DNA from: Oligoflexia bacterium
Lineage (GTDB): Bacteria > Bdellovibrionota > UBA1018
Length of the DNA stretch: 64,000 bases
NCBI GenBank assembly: GCA_903895855.1
Contig: CAITVN010000076.1
Span: 7,124 to 71,123, forward strand
Direction of reading: 5' to 3'
The position numbers and the translations under genes are program-made. Below are positions 30,721 to 47,482 of the stretch, piece after piece. Numbering within the stretch: the stretch's first letter is position 1; the number at the start of each line of letters is the position of its first letter. A model generated the notes under the pieces. The model did not search any database. It saw only the letters and a program-made list of their open reading frames with translations, and was not told the DNA's origin.

Positions 30721-30990
30721 GCGGCTCTTGCTGACCTGAGGATCAATGAAACAATGTCCGCAGACACCCTTTCTTGATCTTTTTTGGTTTTAATTGGGCT
30801 ACCAAACTCAAACTAGTTTTGAGGCCTCCCGCAAGCGTGACGCGTTCGCGCCGTAGGCGCGATGCGGGCGAGGCACGGATGCCGCGCCGAGAAAATGAGT
30901 TTGAGTTTGGTAGCCCAATTAAAACCAAAAATATCACTATGGGTGGCGAGGACTTTGTTTCATTGATCCTCAGGTCAGCAAGAGCGCCGC
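30721..30990. repeat. nested-hairpin intergenic element, copy E1
   Basis: The outer helix 30724-30754 pairs with 30955-30985 (31/31 bp). The inner helix 30780-30814 pairs with 30898-30931 (34 bp). The motifs TGTCCGCAG (30755-30763) and GGCGAGGAC (30945-30953) and the apical GCGAGGCACGGATGCCG are shared with E2 and E3. Confidence 0.85.
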
Positions 30991-36209: not shown

Positions 36210-36534
36210 CAACTGCAGTTGACTGAACCTAAACTAATTGAGAATATTTTCTCCGGTTTCTTTGGCCTTCGTAAAAAGACATTCCGCAGCCGCAGTATCG
36301 GCATCTCTATTTTTTAAGAGTAGACTGCAGTTATCCCCTTATTTTTACTCCTCAAACATCCTATTTTCTTGCTTTCGGCATCCTGCCTCGCAAGAGTCGC
36401 AAAAATAAGGGGATAACTGCAGTCTACTCTTAAAAAATACTCGCCGATACAAAAGCGAGGACGTCTTTTTACGAAGGCCAAAGAAACCGGGGAAAATATT
36501 CTCAACAGTAGCCAGGTTAGTTCAACTGCAGTTG
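36210..36534. repeat. nested-hairpin intergenic element, copy E2
   Basis: Helix 36240-36280 pairs with 36463-36503 (41 bp, one T:G pair). Helix 36309-36346 pairs with 36401-36438 (38/38). The apical segment is 54 nt (36347-36400). The 12-nt palindrome CAACTGCAGTTG occurs at both ends. Confidence 0.9.
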
Positions 36535-44131: not shown

Positions 44132-45760
44132 ATGATTCATATCAGCAATATTACAAAGCAGTACGGCCAGCAGGTGTTATTTGATCGGTGTGGTTTTCAG
44201 GTTCGGCCTGGCGACAAAATTGGGCTAGTCGGGCCCAACGGTGCGGGCAAGACCACTTTGTTTCGGGTCATCATGAAAGAAGAGGGCGTTGATTCGGGCG
44301 AAGTGAATATTGCCGATAAGACCGTGATTGGTTACTTTTCGCAAGATATCGGTGATATGAAAGGCCGCTCGGCTTTAGAAGAAGTCAAAGCGGGTGCTGG
44401 CAGGGTTTCAAAGTTGGCTATTCAAATTGCCGAGATGGAAAAGCGGTTGACCGATTCAGCCGAGAATCCGCTTGATGACGATGCGATGGCAACTTTGCTC
44501 GAACGGTATGGCGAGGCCCAAATCGAATTTGAGCAGCGTCTCGGTTATGATCTTGAGTCACGGGCTCAGGCGATTTTGACGGGCTTGGGTATCGGCCCAG
44601 ATGATTACAATCGGCCAGTTGAGACATTCAGCGGTGGCTGGAAAATGCGAATCGCGCTGGCTCGAATCTTAGTGTTAAATCCAGATGTCTTGCTGATGGA
44701 CGAGCCGACCAATCACCTTGACATCGAATCGATTATTTGGCTCGAGGAGTGGTTAAAAACGTATAAAGGGTCATTGGTAATGACCAGCCATGATCGCGAA
44801 TTCATGAATCGGGTCATCAATCGAATTGTCGAAGTTTTTCATAAGGCAGTGACTTCGTTTACTGGAAATTACGATTTCTACGAAAAAGAACGAGCGATTC
44901 GGCACGAGCAGCTAATTGCATCGCATAAAAAGCAGCAAGAGATGCTAGCAAAAGAAGAAGAGTTCATCGCTCGGTTTGCGGCCCGCGCTTCGCACGCGGC
45001 TCAGGTTCAGTCGCGGGTGAAAAAATTAGAGAAAATTGACCGCATTGAAATTCCGCCAGAAGAACGCGTGATGCAGTTTGAATTTCCGGTTTCGCCTCGA
45101 AGCGGCAATGACGTCATTAAGATGGTCGGTTTGGCTAAAGAGTGGCCTCACCCAAAACTGGGAGTTAAAAAAGTTTTTTCAGCAGTCAACGGTGTTGTAT
45201 CCAGGCTAAATAAAATAGCACTCGTGGGCGTGAATGGTGCCGGTAAATCAACATTGTTAAAGATCATGGCTGGTCAAGTTGAGCCCACTCAAGGTGAATG
45301 CACGATTGGTGCTAACGTGAAAATAGGTTACTTCTCTCAGCACTCGCTTGAAATCTTACAGGGTTCAAAAACCATCTATGACGAAATACACGATCGCATC
45401 CCTGATGCGACCATTGGTTATGTCAGAAACCTTCTTGGTGTTTTTTGTTTTAGCGGTGACGATGTTTATAAAAAAATTGGGTCACTTTCAGGTGGTGAAA
45501 AAAGTCGGGTGGTTTTAGCGACCATTTTGGCGACTCCTGTTAATTTGCTGATTCTCGATGAACCGACCAATCACCTCGACATCAAGTCACGCGAAGTGCT
45601 TCTTGATGCGGTCAAGAAATTTGATGGTACGGCAATCATTGTGAGCCATGACCGTTTCTTTCTGAAGCAAGTGGTTAATCGCGTGTTAGAAGTTGATCAT
45701 GGCGAATTGCGAATGTATGAGGGCGATTACTCGTATTATCAGTCAAAAAGGCCTCATTAG
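44132..45760 (+). CDS. ABC-F family ATPase (two ABC domains, no TM domain)
   Basis: Two Walker A motifs (GPNGAGKTT, GVNGAGKST), two signature motifs (FSGGWKMR, LSGGEKSR) and two Walker B motifs (LLMDEPTNHLD, LILDEPTNHLD). The inter-domain linker is charged. Confidence 0.9.
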   Translation: MIHISNITKQYGQQVLFDRCGFQVRPGDKIGLVGPNGAGKTTLFRVIMKEEGVDSGEVNIADKTVIGYFSQDIGDMKGRSALEEVKAGAGRVSKLAIQIAEMEKRLTDSAENPLDDDAMATLLERYGEAQIEFEQRLGYDLESRAQAILTGLGIGPDDYNRPVETFSGGWKMRIALARILVLNPDVLLMDEPTNHLDIESIIWLEEWLKTYKGSLVMTSHDREFMNRVINRIVEVFHKAVTSFTGNYDFYEKERAIRHEQLIASHKKQQEMLAKEEEFIARFAARASHAAQVQSRVKKLEKIDRIEIPPEERVMQFEFPVSPRSGNDVIKMVGLAKEWPHPKLGVKKVFSAVNGVVSRLNKIALVGVNGAGKSTLLKIMAGQVEPTQGECTIGANVKIGYFSQHSLEILQGSKTIYDEIHDRIPDATIGYVRNLLGVFCFSGDDVYKKIGSLSGGEKSRVVLATILATPVNLLILDEPTNHLDIKSREVLLDAVKKFDGTAIIVSHDRFFLKQVVNRVLEVDHGELRMYEGDYSYYQSKRPH

Positions 45761-45802
45761 GACTCTTGAGTGATAACCTCGCATGCCCAATTGATTCTAA
45801 TT

Positions 45803-46087
45803 GCTGATTATTGAGTTTTTTCAGGCCGTCTAGAATCTGTGCAACCAAGACGTCCTCGCCCTTATTTTAGGGTTTATTTTTTAGGAGGAAAGCAAAGCGG
45901 TTCATTCTTTTTTTGTGACTCTTGCGAGGCAGGATGCCGAAAGCAAGAAAACAAGATGTTTGAGGAACAAAAAAAGAATGAACCGCTTTGCTTTCCTCTT
46001 AAAAAATACAATCACCGAAATAAAGGGCTGCGGAATGTCTTTGTTGCACAGATTCTAGACGGCCTGAAGAAACTCAATAATGAGCAG
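45803..46087. repeat. nested-hairpin intergenic element, copy E3 (inverted relative to E2)
   Basis: Helix 45807-45845 pairs with 46043-46081 (39 bp, one T:G pair). Helix 45885-45914 pairs with 45969-45998 (30/30). The apical 54 nt (45915-45968) match the reverse complement of the E2 apex at about 49/54 positions. Confidence 0.9.
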
Positions 46088-46141
46088 GTGATGACCAGTG
46101 CATAGGAAGTTAATCCACCAGACGAAAGGTAACTGAAAAAA

Positions 46142-47482
46142 ATGGCAGCTAATCAGAATGAGAATGGCTTTAAGCTTCGACTATTTTCGTTAGTTCTAGT
46201 TATTTTTTGCCTCTTGAACAGTGGCGGCTTGTCTTGGGTGTTTGCCGAAAATGGTGAATGGAAGACTGATTTGTCTCTGCAATTGATTGGTGGTGTCGGT
46301 GGCAAGACGAGCAACGATACGCCGCTAAACTATGCTAATAAAGTAATGCAGATTCCAAGTTATCAAGCGGTACTTGAGCTCAGGCCTGAACTCAAAAGCG
46401 AGAGGGGTATGTTTAGCCTTCGCGCCAGACCTCGTTTTATTAGAGAGTTTTCGAAATCGAGAATCAATTCGAATTGGGAGCCCTTCGAGAGTCTCGGTAA
46501 ATTTCAGTGGAGCGAGGCTTACGTCGAAGCGAGCATCGGCCCTGATGTCTTGTTTAGTTACGGTCTTCAAAATTTACAGTGGGGCCAGACTGAGACCCTA
46601 AGTCCAAGTAATCGAATTTTTCGCGATTCGATTCAAGTGAAAGATACCCTTTATGATGTGCGAGGCCGCCATTCGTTTAAGTTGAATTACAGCCCTTCAA
46701 AAGATTGGTCTGTCATCGGATTTGCTGAAATTGCTGAGACCGGCGAAATGGGGAGCACTGAGTTCGAGGCTGAAGAGGCGTTTGGCAAAAAAGCCGTGCT
46801 GAAGGCTGAAAAGAACTTTTCAGGTGGGGCTCACACCCTGGGATTTGTGGCTGGCTTGCGTGAACGGCATGGCGGTTGGTTTGGCAGTTACGGGTCAGCC
46901 GAGGTGTTAGATGGTTTGACTCTTTTTGGTGACCTGGGGGCAGAGGTGGGGAGTGCCAATTGGTATCCGGTATTTGATAAGCAAACAGGTTTGACGACAC
47001 TTTCTCAGATTTATCGAAATTCAGGCAGAGTTTCGACCTCATCAGTACTCGGTGCGAGGTATTCGTTTACTGGGGGAACTGATTTTCGCGTCGAGTGGAT
47101 TTTTCAAGAGCTAGGCTATACTGCGAGCCAGATTGAGACCATTTACGATGCTGCGAGCAGTCGATCGCCCATCCAGCAAGCCAAGAATATTGAGTTGCTA
47201 CCTCGATTAATCAAGAGCGGTTTAGAGCTTCCGGGTAGGCAGTATTTGATGGCTTCGTTAAGAATTCCTGATGTGTTTGAGTTTCAAAAAACTCTCGTCT
47301 ATTCACGCATACTCTTCTCGCCTCGAGACTACTCGGCAACCGCCTATTTGACCGTCGAAATTCCGGTTTCTAGTTATGGCACTAGTTTCGTTGAACTGTA
47401 TCAAAGTTTTGGTGAAAACCAATCTGAACTAAAAGGCTTCGTGGGCTCAAGTTTTCTTGCGGGATATCGACAATACTTTTAA
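46142..47482 (+). CDS. putative outer-membrane beta-barrel protein
   Basis: Signal peptide LRLFSLVLVIFCLLNSGGLSWVFA. The sequence shows an alternating beta-strand-like pattern and ends in an aromatic residue (YRQYF). It is the first gene of the ABC/FtsX cluster. Confidence 0.6.
   Translation: MAANQNENGFKLRLFSLVLVIFCLLNSGGLSWVFAENGEWKTDLSLQLIGGVGGKTSNDTPLNYANKVMQIPSYQAVLELRPELKSERGMFSLRARPRFIREFSKSRINSNWEPFESLGKFQWSEAYVEASIGPDVLFSYGLQNLQWGQTETLSPSNRIFRDSIQVKDTLYDVRGRHSFKLNYSPSKDWSVIGFAEIAETGEMGSTEFEAEEAFGKKAVLKAEKNFSGGAHTLGFVAGLRERHGGWFGSYGSAEVLDGLTLFGDLGAEVGSANWYPVFDKQTGLTTLSQIYRNSGRVSTSSVLGARYSFTGGTDFRVEWIFQELGYTASQIETIYDAASSRSPIQQAKNIELLPRLIKSGLELPGRQYLMASLRIPDVFEFQKTLVYSRILFSPRDYSATAYLTVEIPVSSYGTSFVELYQSFGENQSELKGFVGSSFLAGYRQYF

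What the first reader, a model, noticed from the sequence alone, without database searches (positions are those of the whole stretch)
45803..46087. E3: inverted copy with near-identical core and loop motifs but entirely different helices (wholesale compensatory change)
The apical 54 nt (45915-45968, GTGACTCTTGCGAGGCAGGATGCCGAAAGCAAGAAAACAAGATGTTTGAGGAAC) match the reverse complement of the E2 apex at about 49 of 54 positions. GGCTGCGGAATGTCTTT (46025-46041) is the exact reverse complement of the E2 motif AAAGACATTCCGCAGCC (17/17). AAGACGTCCTCGC (45847-45859) is the exact reverse complement of the E2 motif GCGAGGACGTCTT (13/13). The short C2 pair (ATTTTTTAAGAG / CTCTTAAAAAAT in E2) is also kept (CTCTTAAAAAAT at 45996-46007). 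By contrast, the E3 helices (45807-45845 with 46043-46081, 39 bp with one T:G; 45885-45914 with 45969-45998, 30/30) show no similarity to the E2 helices. E3 lies between co-directional genes (ABC-F and the OMP/ABC cluster), so the family is not restricted to convergent gene ends. In both E2 and E3 the single helix mismatch is wobble-compatible on the + strand even though their cores point in opposite directions. The functional strand therefore remains unresolved.
Basis: seen in the sequence. Interest (0 to 1): 0.8.

Follow-up and report, generated by a model that had tools for sequence, protein, structure and literature searches.

The report
Long hairpin element with protein-binding-like tip
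E3 is a real, roughly 285-base near-perfect nested hairpin sitting just after a gene in a predatory-bacterium (Bdellovibrionota) genome, whose tip is a rearranged version of an orphan RNA motif (TwoAYGGAY) suspected to bind the regulator CsrA, and whose stems have been completely rewritten by paired mutations while the tip stayed constant.

Summary
E3 (45802-46086) is a nested hairpin (RNA fold -181.7 kcal/mol, z = -20.8). It shares its apex (49/54) and two exact junction motifs with E2. The helix arms of E2 and E3 are no more alike than shuffled sequence.

The apex is not an IS end or a gene fragment. It is a two-hairpin module containing GAGGCAGGAUGCCGAAAGC. That 19-mer occurs 72 times in reference genomes against about 4 expected, across several phyla. 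The same module occurs in the seed sequences of the Rfam family TwoAYGGAY (RF01731), an orphan RNA proposed, but not shown, to bind CsrA. In E3 and its Bdellovibrionota relatives the two hairpins are in swapped order, and E3 does not score against the Rfam model.

The core fold covaries (score 0.432 versus 0.163 in shuffles). Related copies show the helices changing stepwise, with both arms changing together. G:U pairs favour the core strand (39 versus 19 overall; 12 versus 2 for E2 plus E3).

Most likely E3 is a multi-copy structured RNA at gene 3' ends that displays a protein-binding cap. A DNA-level palindromic repeat is the main rival. I rate it a new variant of a known kind. Its function is untested.

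The parts
45802..46086 (+). E3, whole nested hairpin ('capped rod'); the core reads on the + strand
   Evidence: MFE -181.7 kcal/mol, z = -20.8; - strand -161.9
45802..45851 (+). Outer helix P0, 5' arm (variable sequence); pairs with 46037-46086
   Evidence: 50 nt, 3 non-WC positions including T:G at 45819:46069
46037..46086 (+). Outer helix P0, 3' arm
45847..45859 (+). Conserved 5' junction motif AAGACGTCCTCGC (exact in E2; variant AAAGTCCTCGCC in E1 on the - strand)
46026..46042 (+). Conserved 3' junction motif GGCTGCGGAATGTCTTT (exact in E2; variant GTCTGCGGACATTGTTT in E1 on the - strand)
45858..45883 (+). Small local hairpin GCCCTTATTTTAGGGT plus T-run TTATTTTTTA. It is intrinsic-terminator-like on the core strand and is an alternative to pairing of 45858-45868 with 46018-46028. 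E2 has the equivalent at 36459-36430 (- strand) with a different stem sequence
45875..45914 (+). Inner helix P1, 5' arm: conserved base TATTTTTTAGGAG, variable middle of ~22 nt, conserved T-run
   Evidence: 40 bp with one G:T (45884:45999)
45969..46008 (+). Inner helix P1, 3' arm
45915..45968 (+). Cap (core): GA / CTC closing helix, hairpin T, GA, hairpin S, GAG / GA. Scores 80.1 bits against my class-A covariance model R1
45922..45946 (+). Hairpin T: TTGC-GA-GGCA-GGA-TGCC-GAAA-GCAA. It has a tandem G.A internal loop, and its GGA loop is at 45932-45934. It contains the widespread 19-mer GAGGCAGGATGCCGAAAGC (45926-45944)
   Evidence: the same module occurs in a TwoAYGGAY seed sequence
45949..45961 (+). 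Hairpin S: AAACA-AGA-TGTTT. The loop is AAGAU in E3 and AGGAU in E2; the stem C-G in E3 is U-G in E2
36210..36534 (-). E2, sister copy with the core on the - strand (79.6 bits to R1), between convergent genes. It has a third, outermost helix 36210-36230/36514-36534
30724..30985 (.). E1, same nested-rod chassis and a variant of the junction motifs, but a different 71-nt GC-rich cap (7.5 bits to R1, not significant). Its junction polarity is '-' while its GGA hairpin GGCACGGATGCC reads on '+'
44132..45760 (+). Upstream ABC-F gene; E3 starts 41 nt after its stop codon
46142..47482 (+). Downstream gene (446 aa, no Pfam family), first gene of an ABC/FtsX cluster; starts 55 nt after E3

Best explanation
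E3 is one copy of a multi-copy structured intergenic element of Bdellovibrionota. It is a long, almost perfectly Watson-Crick nested hairpin (outer helix, conserved junction, inner helix) topped by a ~50-nt cap. The cap consists of two small hairpins held by tandem G.A pairs. One is the strictly conserved GAG-GCA-GGA-UGC-CGAAA hairpin, and the other is a short hairpin with an A-N-G-A-N loop. This is the two-hairpin module of the orphan RNA motif TwoAYGGAY with the hairpin order swapped.

Proposed mechanism:
- The element is transcribed on the core strand as part of the 3' region of the neighbouring gene, or by read-through.
- It folds into the rod. The cap then presents two GGA-type loops about 24 nt apart to a dimeric RNA-binding protein, most probably CsrA, which Bdellovibrionota possess.
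- The long duplex serves as a stable stalk. It may act as a barrier to exonucleases or transcription from both directions, and it is a likely RNase III substrate that could release the capped hairpin.
- Selection needs only pairing in the stalk, so its sequence drifts by paired substitutions. The cap and junction are held constant.

Shown here: the anatomy, conservation, covariation, stepwise compensation, strand bias, placement and taxonomic spread. Inferred, not shown: transcription, the protein partner and processing.
For: - Spread of the motif: the 19-mer of hairpin T occurs in 72 genome stretches against about 4 expected from collection size (my arithmetic). Hits span Bdellovibrionota, Gammaproteobacteria, Planctomycetota and Spirochaetes MAGs, often several per genome, and most sit in a hairpin context.
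- Link to TwoAYGGAY: its seed sequences contain the same module, for example CUGAGGCA.GGAUGCC.GAA, next to a simple hairpin with an ACGGAU or AAGGAU loop. The original description notes a P1 that is 'often very large'. A Bdellovibrionota copy (L017) passes the Rfam gathering score, 45.4 against 43 bits.
- Covariation: in 19 class-A copies 84.5% of cells are paired and the covariation score is 0.432, against 0.163 in shuffles (0 of 500 reach it) and at most 0.141 when partners are slid. P2 is 100% paired, with both-sided changes at 3 of 4 pairs. The divergent copy L017:1754 carries compensatory changes in P2 and in the GGA hairpin stem.
- Helices turn over while the core persists: L078, L082 and L088 share an upstream block and the core but have unalignable P1 arms. 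In-register comparisons give E3-E2 20 compensated, 1 via G:U and 0 mismatches; L073a-b 11 compensated and 0 uncompensated; L017:6592-L017:1754 3 compensated, 1 G:U and 2 mismatches.
- Strand: the core-strand fold is better in 16 of 17 copies (E3 -181.7 against -161.9). In the helices alone G:U is 39 on the core strand and 19 on the opposite strand, p = 0.012; for E2 plus E3 it is 12 to 2.
- Placement: copies sit directly after stop codons (gaps of 3-46 nt) in most cases.
- Partner: Bdellovibrionota encode functional CsrA and no sponge RNA is known there (PMC13443453). CAGGAUG is the CsrB repeat motif (my own knowledge). CsrA binding was proposed for TwoAYGGAY (PMC4333381).
Against: - There are no expression data, and no promoter-like site was found around E3.
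- The orientation of the core relative to the abutting gene is inconsistent across copies. It is sense in E3, L052 and L030, and antisense in L017, L038a, L040 and L058.
- A terminator-like hairpin plus U-run lies upstream of the cap on the core strand in both E2 and E3. If efficient, it would stop transcription before the cap.
- The second loop is not GGA in E3 (AAGAU) or in several relatives (ACGAC, ACGAA). That weakens two-site CsrA binding.
- The helices are 94% Watson-Crick with very few G:U pairs. This is more perfect than typical RNA helices and is what a DNA palindrome would show.
- In E1 the cap and junction are inverted relative to each other. That is a DNA-level rearrangement, and a single-strand RNA function would not obviously tolerate it.
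- E3 itself does not score against Rfam TwoAYGGAY at E <= 10. Most of L017's score comes from its long helix: the reverse strand scores 32.9 bits, and the core alone gives no hit.
Confidence: 0.5

Rival explanations
1. DNA-level palindromic repeat (REP/MITE-like). The element spreads or is maintained as DNA. The cap and junction are recognition sites for a DNA-binding or hairpin-binding enzyme such as a transposase or recombinase acting on single-stranded DNA. The arms stay perfectly complementary because hairpin-templated repair (quasipalindrome correction) copies each mutation from one arm to the other.
For: - Copies are numerous: 3 rods in 64 kb, 8 copies in three contigs of one MAG, and 7-8 hits in single gammaproteobacterial MAGs.
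- Orientation relative to genes is inconsistent.
- Copies recur as oppositely oriented pairs 165-290 nt apart.
- The helices are 94% Watson-Crick. Differences between related copies are almost always already compensated, for example 11 to 0 in L073a versus L073b.
- In E1 the cap is inverted relative to the junction, as expected from recombination between inverted arms.
- Assemblies of the same population break inside E3.
Against: - MITE and REP copies normally share their arm sequences and differ inside. Here the arms are what differs.
- No target-site duplication is visible at E2 or E3.
- No transposase is seen next to any copy, and there are no matches in viral, plasmid or phage collections.
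- The 4-5 bp helices of the cap covary, and such helices would not form in duplex DNA.
- G:U is favoured over A.C on one strand, which a purely DNA process does not predict.
Confidence: 0.27
2. A passive gene-end structure. The rod is simply a strong, bidirectional transcription barrier or mRNA 3'-end stabiliser, and the cap is only a stable way of closing the hairpin, with no partner in trans.
For: - All three window copies fill the space after stop codons. E1 and E2 lie between convergent genes, where both strands would need to fold. That would explain the insistence on Watson-Crick pairs.
- Terminator-like hairpin plus T-run modules occur inside E2 and E3.
- A different capped long hairpin sits 10 nt after the orthologous ABC-F gene in a relative.
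Against: - A loop closure would not need a 19-nt sequence that is invariant across phyla, nor a covarying two-hairpin architecture.
- A 285-nt, -180 kcal/mol structure is far beyond what termination or 3'-end protection needs.
- There is no U-run after the full rod.
- Some copies lie in 5' regions between divergent genes (L073).
Confidence: 0.15
3. Programmable element: the variable helix sequences are guides or decoys that match other loci.
For: Sharp boundaries separate the 100%-conserved blocks from the unrelated ~22-bp helix segments in E2 versus E3.
Against: - The helix arms match only their own partner arm in the window and in all held loci. The best other matches are 10-14 nt at E > 0.02.
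- Related copies show gradual, pair-by-pair divergence of the arms rather than cassette replacement.
- The arms of the MAG copies are T-rich on the 5' side and homologous to each other.
Confidence: 0.03

Closest known systems
TwoAYGGAY RNA motif (Rfam RF01731, clan CL00106 with the Csr/Rsm sRNAs; Weinberg et al. 2010, PMC2864571; CsrA binding proposed by Gardner and Eldai 2014, PMC4333381)
   Same: - A long closing helix of poorly conserved sequence ('often very large').
- Two adjacent hairpins with GGA-type loops.
- Tandem G.A pairs flanking one hairpin.
- The module GAGGCAGGAUGCCGAA occurs verbatim in one seed sequence.
- A Bdellovibrionota relative of E3 (L017) passes the Rfam threshold.
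- The function is unknown in both.
   Different: - The order of the two hairpins is swapped. In E3 the tandem-GA hairpin comes first; in the seeds and in the Rfam consensus it comes second, after a CAAG linker.
- E3's loops are CAGGAU and CAAGAU, not AYGGAY.
- E3 has a second, outer helix joined through conserved junction motifs.
- E3 does not score against the Rfam model at E <= 10.
- The host phylum (Bdellovibrionota) and the multi-copy, gene-end placement are not part of the description.
CsrB/RsmY/RsmZ-type CsrA-sequestering sRNAs
   Same: They have repeated hairpins presenting (C)AGGA(U)G loops. Pairs of loops are spaced so that one CsrA dimer can bridge them (my own knowledge of the Csr/Rsm literature). 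The partner protein is present in the phylum.
   Different: - Those sRNAs are single-copy genes with their own GacA/UvrY-dependent promoters and a terminator, and they carry 4-22 GGA sites without a long rod.
- E3 has at most two sites, one of them degenerate.
- E3 has no detectable promoter or terminator of its own.
- E3 is one of many dispersed copies.
- No Rfam Csr/Rsm family matches it.
Intergenic palindromic repeats: REP/BIME, ERIC, Correia/NEMIS elements and other MITEs
   Same: They are multi-copy and sit in intergenic regions, mostly at gene 3' ends in either orientation. They are co-transcribed hairpins that can affect mRNA stability and can be RNase III substrates (my own knowledge). 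They cause assembly breaks.
   Different: In those families the inverted-repeat arms are the conserved part and the copies are alignable throughout. In E2 and E3 the arms are unrelated and only the tip and junction are conserved. No target-site duplication or associated transposase was found.

Membership tests
TwoAYGGAY RNA (Rfam RF01731) | Scores at or above the curated gathering threshold (43 bits) of the Rfam covariance model | tested here: not met
   There is no TwoAYGGAY match in the window at the gathering threshold, nor in 45700-46200 at E <= 10. Relative L017 scores 45.4 bits, but its reverse strand scores 32.9 and its core alone gives nothing. Other class-A relatives give no match at E <= 0.01.
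TwoAYGGAY RNA (Rfam RF01731) | Two terminal loops carrying AYGGAY | tested here: inconclusive
   E3's loops read C-AGGAU-G and C-AAGAU-G. E2's read C-AGGAU-G and U-AGGAU-G. Bdellovibrionota MAG copies have CAGGAUG and C-AUGGAU-G, the latter exactly AYGGAY. So there is one GGA loop without the Y, and in E3 itself the second loop has lost GGA.
TwoAYGGAY RNA (Rfam RF01731) | Long P1 helix of variable sequence closing the two hairpins | tested here: met
   E3's P1 is 40 bp with one G:U. P1 is 14-55 bp in the class-A copies. The original description reads 'often very large (e.g., 24 base pairs...)'.
TwoAYGGAY RNA (Rfam RF01731) | Tandem G.A pairs in the stem of one hairpin (GAG ... GAA around the GGA hairpin) | tested here: met
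   E3 has GAG-GCAGGAUGC-CGAAA. The seeds have GAGGCA.GGAUGCC.GAA and GAGCCAUGGAUGGC.GAA (PMC4333381). This is a sequence-level match; the non-canonical pairs themselves cannot be tested computationally here.
TwoAYGGAY RNA (Rfam RF01731) | Order of elements: P1, simple hairpin, CAAG linker, tandem-GA hairpin, P1' | tested here: not met
   In E3, E2 and all Bdellovibrionota class-A copies the tandem-GA hairpin comes first and the simple hairpin second. The canonical order is seen in the seeds, in the Rfam consensus, and in my 'class C' gammaproteobacterial and spirochaete hits.
CsrA/RsmA-sequestering sRNA (Csr/Rsm clan) | Binds CsrA through GGA loops and titrates it | not testable with these tools
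   Only sequence resemblance (CAGGAUG loop) and the presence of CsrA in the phylum are available. No csrA gene lies in the held sequences, which is uninformative for 64 kb.
CsrA/RsmA-sequestering sRNA (Csr/Rsm clan) | Independent transcription unit with its own promoter and terminator | tested here: not met
   There is no promoter-like site in 45500-46400, and the only terminator-like site lies upstream of the cap. These are simple consensus scans, so the evidence is weak.
MITE / REP-type mobile palindromic repeat | Copies share terminal inverted repeats and are flanked by target-site duplications; presence/absence polymorphism at orthologous sites | tested here: not met
   The arms of E2 and E3 are unrelated, and no direct repeat flanks either element. 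Presence/absence could not be tested. The nearest relatives share only ~77% ABC-F identity and have lost synteny.

The most novel reading that the evidence does not exclude
Bdellovibrionota carry a previously undescribed class of modular 'capped rod' elements: dispersed, 150-325-nt near-perfect nested hairpins at gene ends. They have interchangeable structured caps (the permuted TwoAYGGAY cap of E2 and E3, the GC-rich cap of E1, and the cap seen in L092). Their stalks are kept Watson-Crick-perfect by a combination of RNA-level selection and DNA-level arm-to-arm correction. They act collectively as a genome-wide, 3'-UTR-embedded reservoir of binding sites for CsrA or another dimeric RNA-binding protein, possibly released by RNase III. 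That would couple bulk transcription to post-transcriptional control in these predators.
Probability: 0.15. Interest if true: 0.75.

Novelty: new variant of a known kind. Interest (0 to 1): 0.55.

Why it matters
TwoAYGGAY has been an orphan motif since 2010, with only an untested CsrA hypothesis. This finding does four things:
- It extends the motif's key module to Bdellovibrionota and, through the 19-mer, to Planctomycetota, Spirochaetes and many Gammaproteobacteria.
- It shows that the two hairpins can occur in either order. That points to the hairpins, not their connectivity, as the functional units, as expected for two binding sites of a dimeric protein.
- It offers a very clean natural example of saturated compensatory evolution, in which about 115 bp of stem are rewritten while the 35-nt centre of the apex and both junction motifs are identical between E2 and E3.
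- It identifies a cultivable host group for experiments (Bacteriovorax stolpii carries copies). CsrA regulation in predatory bacteria is essentially unexplored, and no sponge RNA is known there.

If the DNA-level reading is right instead, the elements would be an unusual palindromic repeat family whose arms, not interior, are free to vary.

Tried and rejected
- **Rfam on the whole window at gathering thresholds:** nothing. At E <= 10 around E3, only long-hairpin plant and animal miRNA models matched, well below their thresholds. These are artefacts of any long perfect hairpin.
- **TwoAYGGAY on the L017 core with a short stem:** no hit. This showed that the family score depends mostly on the long helix.
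- **Guide or decoy idea:** BLAST of each variable arm against the window and all loci gave only self and partner matches.
- **Known mobile or annotated elements:** viral contigs gave 0 hits. Plasmid and phage collections gave no match for E3, and the plasmid collection gave none for the gammaproteobacterial repeat unit.
- **Empty-site test:** the closest ABC-F orthologues (77-78% identity) have different downstream genes, so the site cannot be compared.
- **Coding potential:** the 88-aa ORF 45839-46105, called as a gene in a metagenome annotation, has no Pfam family and lies wholly inside the palindrome. I treat it as spurious.
- **K-turn reading of the GAG/CGAAA loop:** considered by eye and rejected, because the order of bulge and G.A pairs does not fit the K-turn consensus (my own knowledge). 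The loop is better read as tandem sheared G.A with a 2-nt bulge.
- **csrA in held sequence:** tblastn found none. This is uninformative.
- **'Rhodopirellula-1' identity of the Planctomycete (class B) version:** the supplement search did not return a usable description, so this was left open.
- **Metagenome scan:** it returned only 12 loci, several of them the same MAG. No closer relatives of the window organism were obtained.

Full report
**1. The observation**

The region 45802-46086 is a nested inverted repeat. The outer arms are 45802-45851/46037-46086 (50 nt, 94% complementary). The inner arms are 45875-45921/45962-46008 (47 nt, 94%).

As RNA the + strand folds into one rod of -181.7 kcal/mol. 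Shuffles give -71.5 +/- 5.3, so z = -20.8.

The window holds three such rods and no other inverted repeat of comparable size:
- E1, 30724-30985
- E2, 36238-36505, which extends to 36210-36534 through a third helix
- E3

E2 and E3 share several exact blocks on opposite strands:
- AAGACGTCCTCGC and GGCTGCGGAATGTCTTT.
- The base of the inner helix, TATTTTTTA(A/G)GAG / CTCTTAAAAAATA.
- 49 of 54 apex positions, including 35 identical in a row.

Their helix arms are no more alike than shuffled sequence.

**2. What the apex is**

A scan of one genome per species for the apex 19-mer GAGGCAGGATGCCGAAAGC returned 72 stretches. From the size of the collection I expect about 4 by chance (my arithmetic). 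A handful of hits lie in coding sequence and look like chance.

The rest fall into recognisable architectures:
- **Class A.** A long closing helix, then the conserved hairpin, then a second short hairpin. It is found in the window, in a Bdellovibrionota MAG with eight copies, in Bacteriovorax stolpii and related MAGs, and in an Oligoflexia MAG.
- **Class B.** Two tandem units, in Pirellulales and Kuenenia.
- **Class C.** A simple hairpin, a linker, then the conserved hairpin. It is found in many Gammaproteobacteria and some Spirochaetes, often as multi-copy repeats.

ABC-F homologues place the window organism in Bdellovibrionota. The nearest relatives share only 77-78% identity.

**3. Relation to TwoAYGGAY**

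One class-A copy (L017) passes the Rfam gathering score for TwoAYGGAY, 45.4 against 43 bits. That hit is not strong evidence by itself. The reverse strand scores 32.9 bits, and the core with a short stem gives nothing, so most of the score comes from the long helix.

Better evidence comes from the published seed alignment. The seeds read [simple hairpin with ACGGAU or AAGGAU loop]-CAAG-[stem-GAG-GCC or GGCA-loop with GGA-...-GAA-stem], and one seed contains CUGAGGCAGGAUGCCGAA. The original authors also noted a P1 that is 'often very large'. Later authors noted tandem G.A pairs and proposed, without testing, that the motif binds CsrA.

E3's cap therefore carries the two TwoAYGGAY hairpins, but in the opposite order. 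E3 itself does not score against the Rfam model. I file it as a variant related to that family, not as a member.

**4. Is the cap fold real?**

I built a covariance model of the class-A cap (R1).
- In the window it finds only E3 (80.1 bits) and E2 (79.6 bits). E1's cap scores 7.5 bits, which is not significant.
- In the other loci it recovers all pattern-selected copies plus two divergent ones that the exact pattern could not have found (L017:1989 and L017:1754).

On the 19-copy alignment:
- 84.5% of cells are paired.
- The covariation score is 0.432, against 0.163 in shuffles (0 of 500 reach it) and at most 0.141 when partners are slid.
- P2 is always paired, as UUGC/GCAA, CGGC/GCCG, UCGC/GCGA or CGAC/GUCG.

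The alignment was fitted to the model, and many sequences were ascertained through an exact 19-mer or 21-mer. The invariant hairpin therefore says nothing either way. The support comes from P2, from the closing helix, and from the divergent L017:1754 copy.

**5. How the helices evolve**

Three loci (L078, L082, L088) share an ~80-nt upstream block and the cap, but have unalignable P1 arms.

In the Bdellovibrionota MAG the arms are still homologous, at 50-81% identity in register. Counts of differences between copies, measured outward from the cap, are:

| Pair | Same | Compensated on both arms | Via G:U | One-sided mismatch |
|---|---|---|---|---|
| L073a vs L073b | 21 | 11 | 0 | 0 |
| L017:6592 vs L017:1754 | 26 | 3 | 1 | 2 |
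| E3 vs E2 | 11 | 20 | 1 | 0 |

The 'wholesale' difference is thus the end state of pair-by-pair change under a very strict requirement for pairing. The arms match nothing else in the held sequence.

**6. Which strand, and RNA or DNA?**

- The core strand folds better than its complement in 16 of 17 copies.
- With the cap excluded, the helices contain 925 Watson-Crick pairs, 39 G:U on the core strand and 19 positions that would be G:U only on the other strand (p = 0.012). For E2 plus E3 the split is 12 to 2. The copies are not fully independent, so this p-value is indicative only.

This favours an RNA read from the core strand. However, 94% Watson-Crick pairing and the scarcity of uncompensated intermediates are also what arm-to-arm correction of a DNA palindrome would give.

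Several DNA-level signs exist:
- In E1 the junction motifs have '-' polarity while the GGA hairpin reads on '+'.
- Copies occur as oppositely oriented pairs.
- Orientation relative to neighbouring genes is inconsistent.
- Assemblies break inside E3.

**7. Context**

All three window copies start 7-46 nt after a stop codon. Most class-A copies elsewhere also abut a gene 3' end. One pair (L073) lies between divergent genes.

On the core strand, both E2 and E3 have a small hairpin followed by the conserved TATTTTTTA run just upstream of the inner helix. The two stems differ in sequence. This could terminate the incoming transcript before the cap, and it competes with the rod fold.

A relative has a different capped long hairpin 10 nt after its ABC-F gene. 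The nested two-helix layout with about 185 nt between the outer arms recurs in L052. The junction motifs are private to the window organism.

**8. Interpretation**

The best-supported reading is a multi-copy structured RNA element at gene ends, whose cap presents two GGA-type loops on a tandem-G.A scaffold to a dimeric RNA-binding protein. CsrA is the obvious candidate, because Bdellovibrionota have functional CsrA and no known sponge.

The long duplex would act as a stalk, a barrier, and a probable RNase III substrate.

My confidence by level:
- About 0.85 that this is a genuine, selected structured element related to TwoAYGGAY.
- About 0.6 that it acts as RNA.
- About 0.35 that the partner is CsrA.

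The main rival is a DNA-level palindromic repeat. A passive gene-end hairpin and a guide or decoy role are less likely.

**9. Verdict**

It is a new variant of a known but uncharacterised kind: a hairpin-order-swapped, nested, Bdellovibrionota form of TwoAYGGAY. It is moderately interesting in itself. It would be more so if the modular 'capped rod' idea or CsrA binding were confirmed.

Noticed in passing
window 30724-30985 (E1): E1 has the same nested-rod chassis and a variant of the E2/E3 junction motifs (AAAGTCCTCGCC / GTCTGCGGACATTGTTT on the - strand). Its cap is a different 71-nt GC-rich sequence in an otherwise AT-rich setting. Its only GGA hairpin (GGCACGGATGCC) reads on the + strand, so cap and junction are inverted relative to E2 and E3. 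Both strands fold about equally well (-174.1 and -172.3 kcal/mol).
   Followed up: partly
window 36210-36230 / 36514-36534: E2 has a third, outermost helix (21 nt, 86%), making it ~325 nt long. This helix and the inner helix both contain the palindrome ACTGCAGT (a PstI-like site).
   Followed up: no
L078:2390-2470, L082 (- strand) about 230-310, L088 (- strand) about 1650-1730: A conserved ~80-nt block (…GACCGAAAGAGGACGCCCACTTCGGACAACCCTGCTGTCGCAGGGAACTCGTGGGCG…CTCTTCCGGATC) precedes the class-A element in three metagenome contigs. It has internal complementarity and compensatory-looking differences. No Rfam family matches it at E <= 0.01.
   Followed up: partly
L083:983-1650: A canonical-order (class C) unit lies in a 16S-23S spacer just after tRNA-Ala. 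It is followed by a partial duplicate of the tRNA 3' half, which itself carries a hairpin insertion in the T-arm. This looks like an insertion footprint.
   Followed up: no
L092:5640-5804: A long hairpin (54-nt arms, 89% complementary) with a different 57-nt GC-rich cap starts 10 nt after the stop codon of the ABC-F orthologue (78% identity). Capped long hairpins at gene ends therefore seem general in this lineage, with several cap types.
   Followed up: partly
L017:1754-2058, L038:7183-7694, L073:6432-6899: In one Bdellovibrionota MAG, class-A copies occur three times as oppositely oriented pairs 165-290 nt apart, always with the '-' copy first and the '+' copy second. In L073 the pair lies between divergent genes, each copy in sense orientation to the gene it precedes.
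   Followed up: partly
L006, L024, L027, L032, L037, L043, L048-L050, L056 (Pirellulales, Kuenenia, other Planctomycetota): A Planctomycete version (class B) has two tandem GAGG-hairpin-CCGNAG units inside a covarying helix (for example TGCTGAC/GTCAGCA versus GCTGGC/GCCAGC) and a closing stem of up to 22 bp. Whether it equals a described motif was not resolved.
   Followed up: no
L014, L026, L042, L059, L060, L063, L075 (one MAG, LNFF01); L020, L033, L035, L062, L072, L074, L076 (JANOOA01): Single gammaproteobacterial MAGs carry 7-8 copies of a ~90-nt repeat containing the canonical-order unit, preceded by an inverted partial unit. None reaches an Rfam gathering score.
   Followed up: no
window 45839-46105; L001:4906-5172: An 88-aa ORF lying entirely inside the E3 palindrome is called as a gene in a public metagenome annotation. 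It has no Pfam family and is almost certainly spurious.
   Followed up: partly
L002, L003, L005 (ends of contigs): Three metagenome contigs of the same population end inside E3: two in the outer 5' arm and one in the 3' junction. The element therefore breaks short-read assemblies.
   Followed up: no
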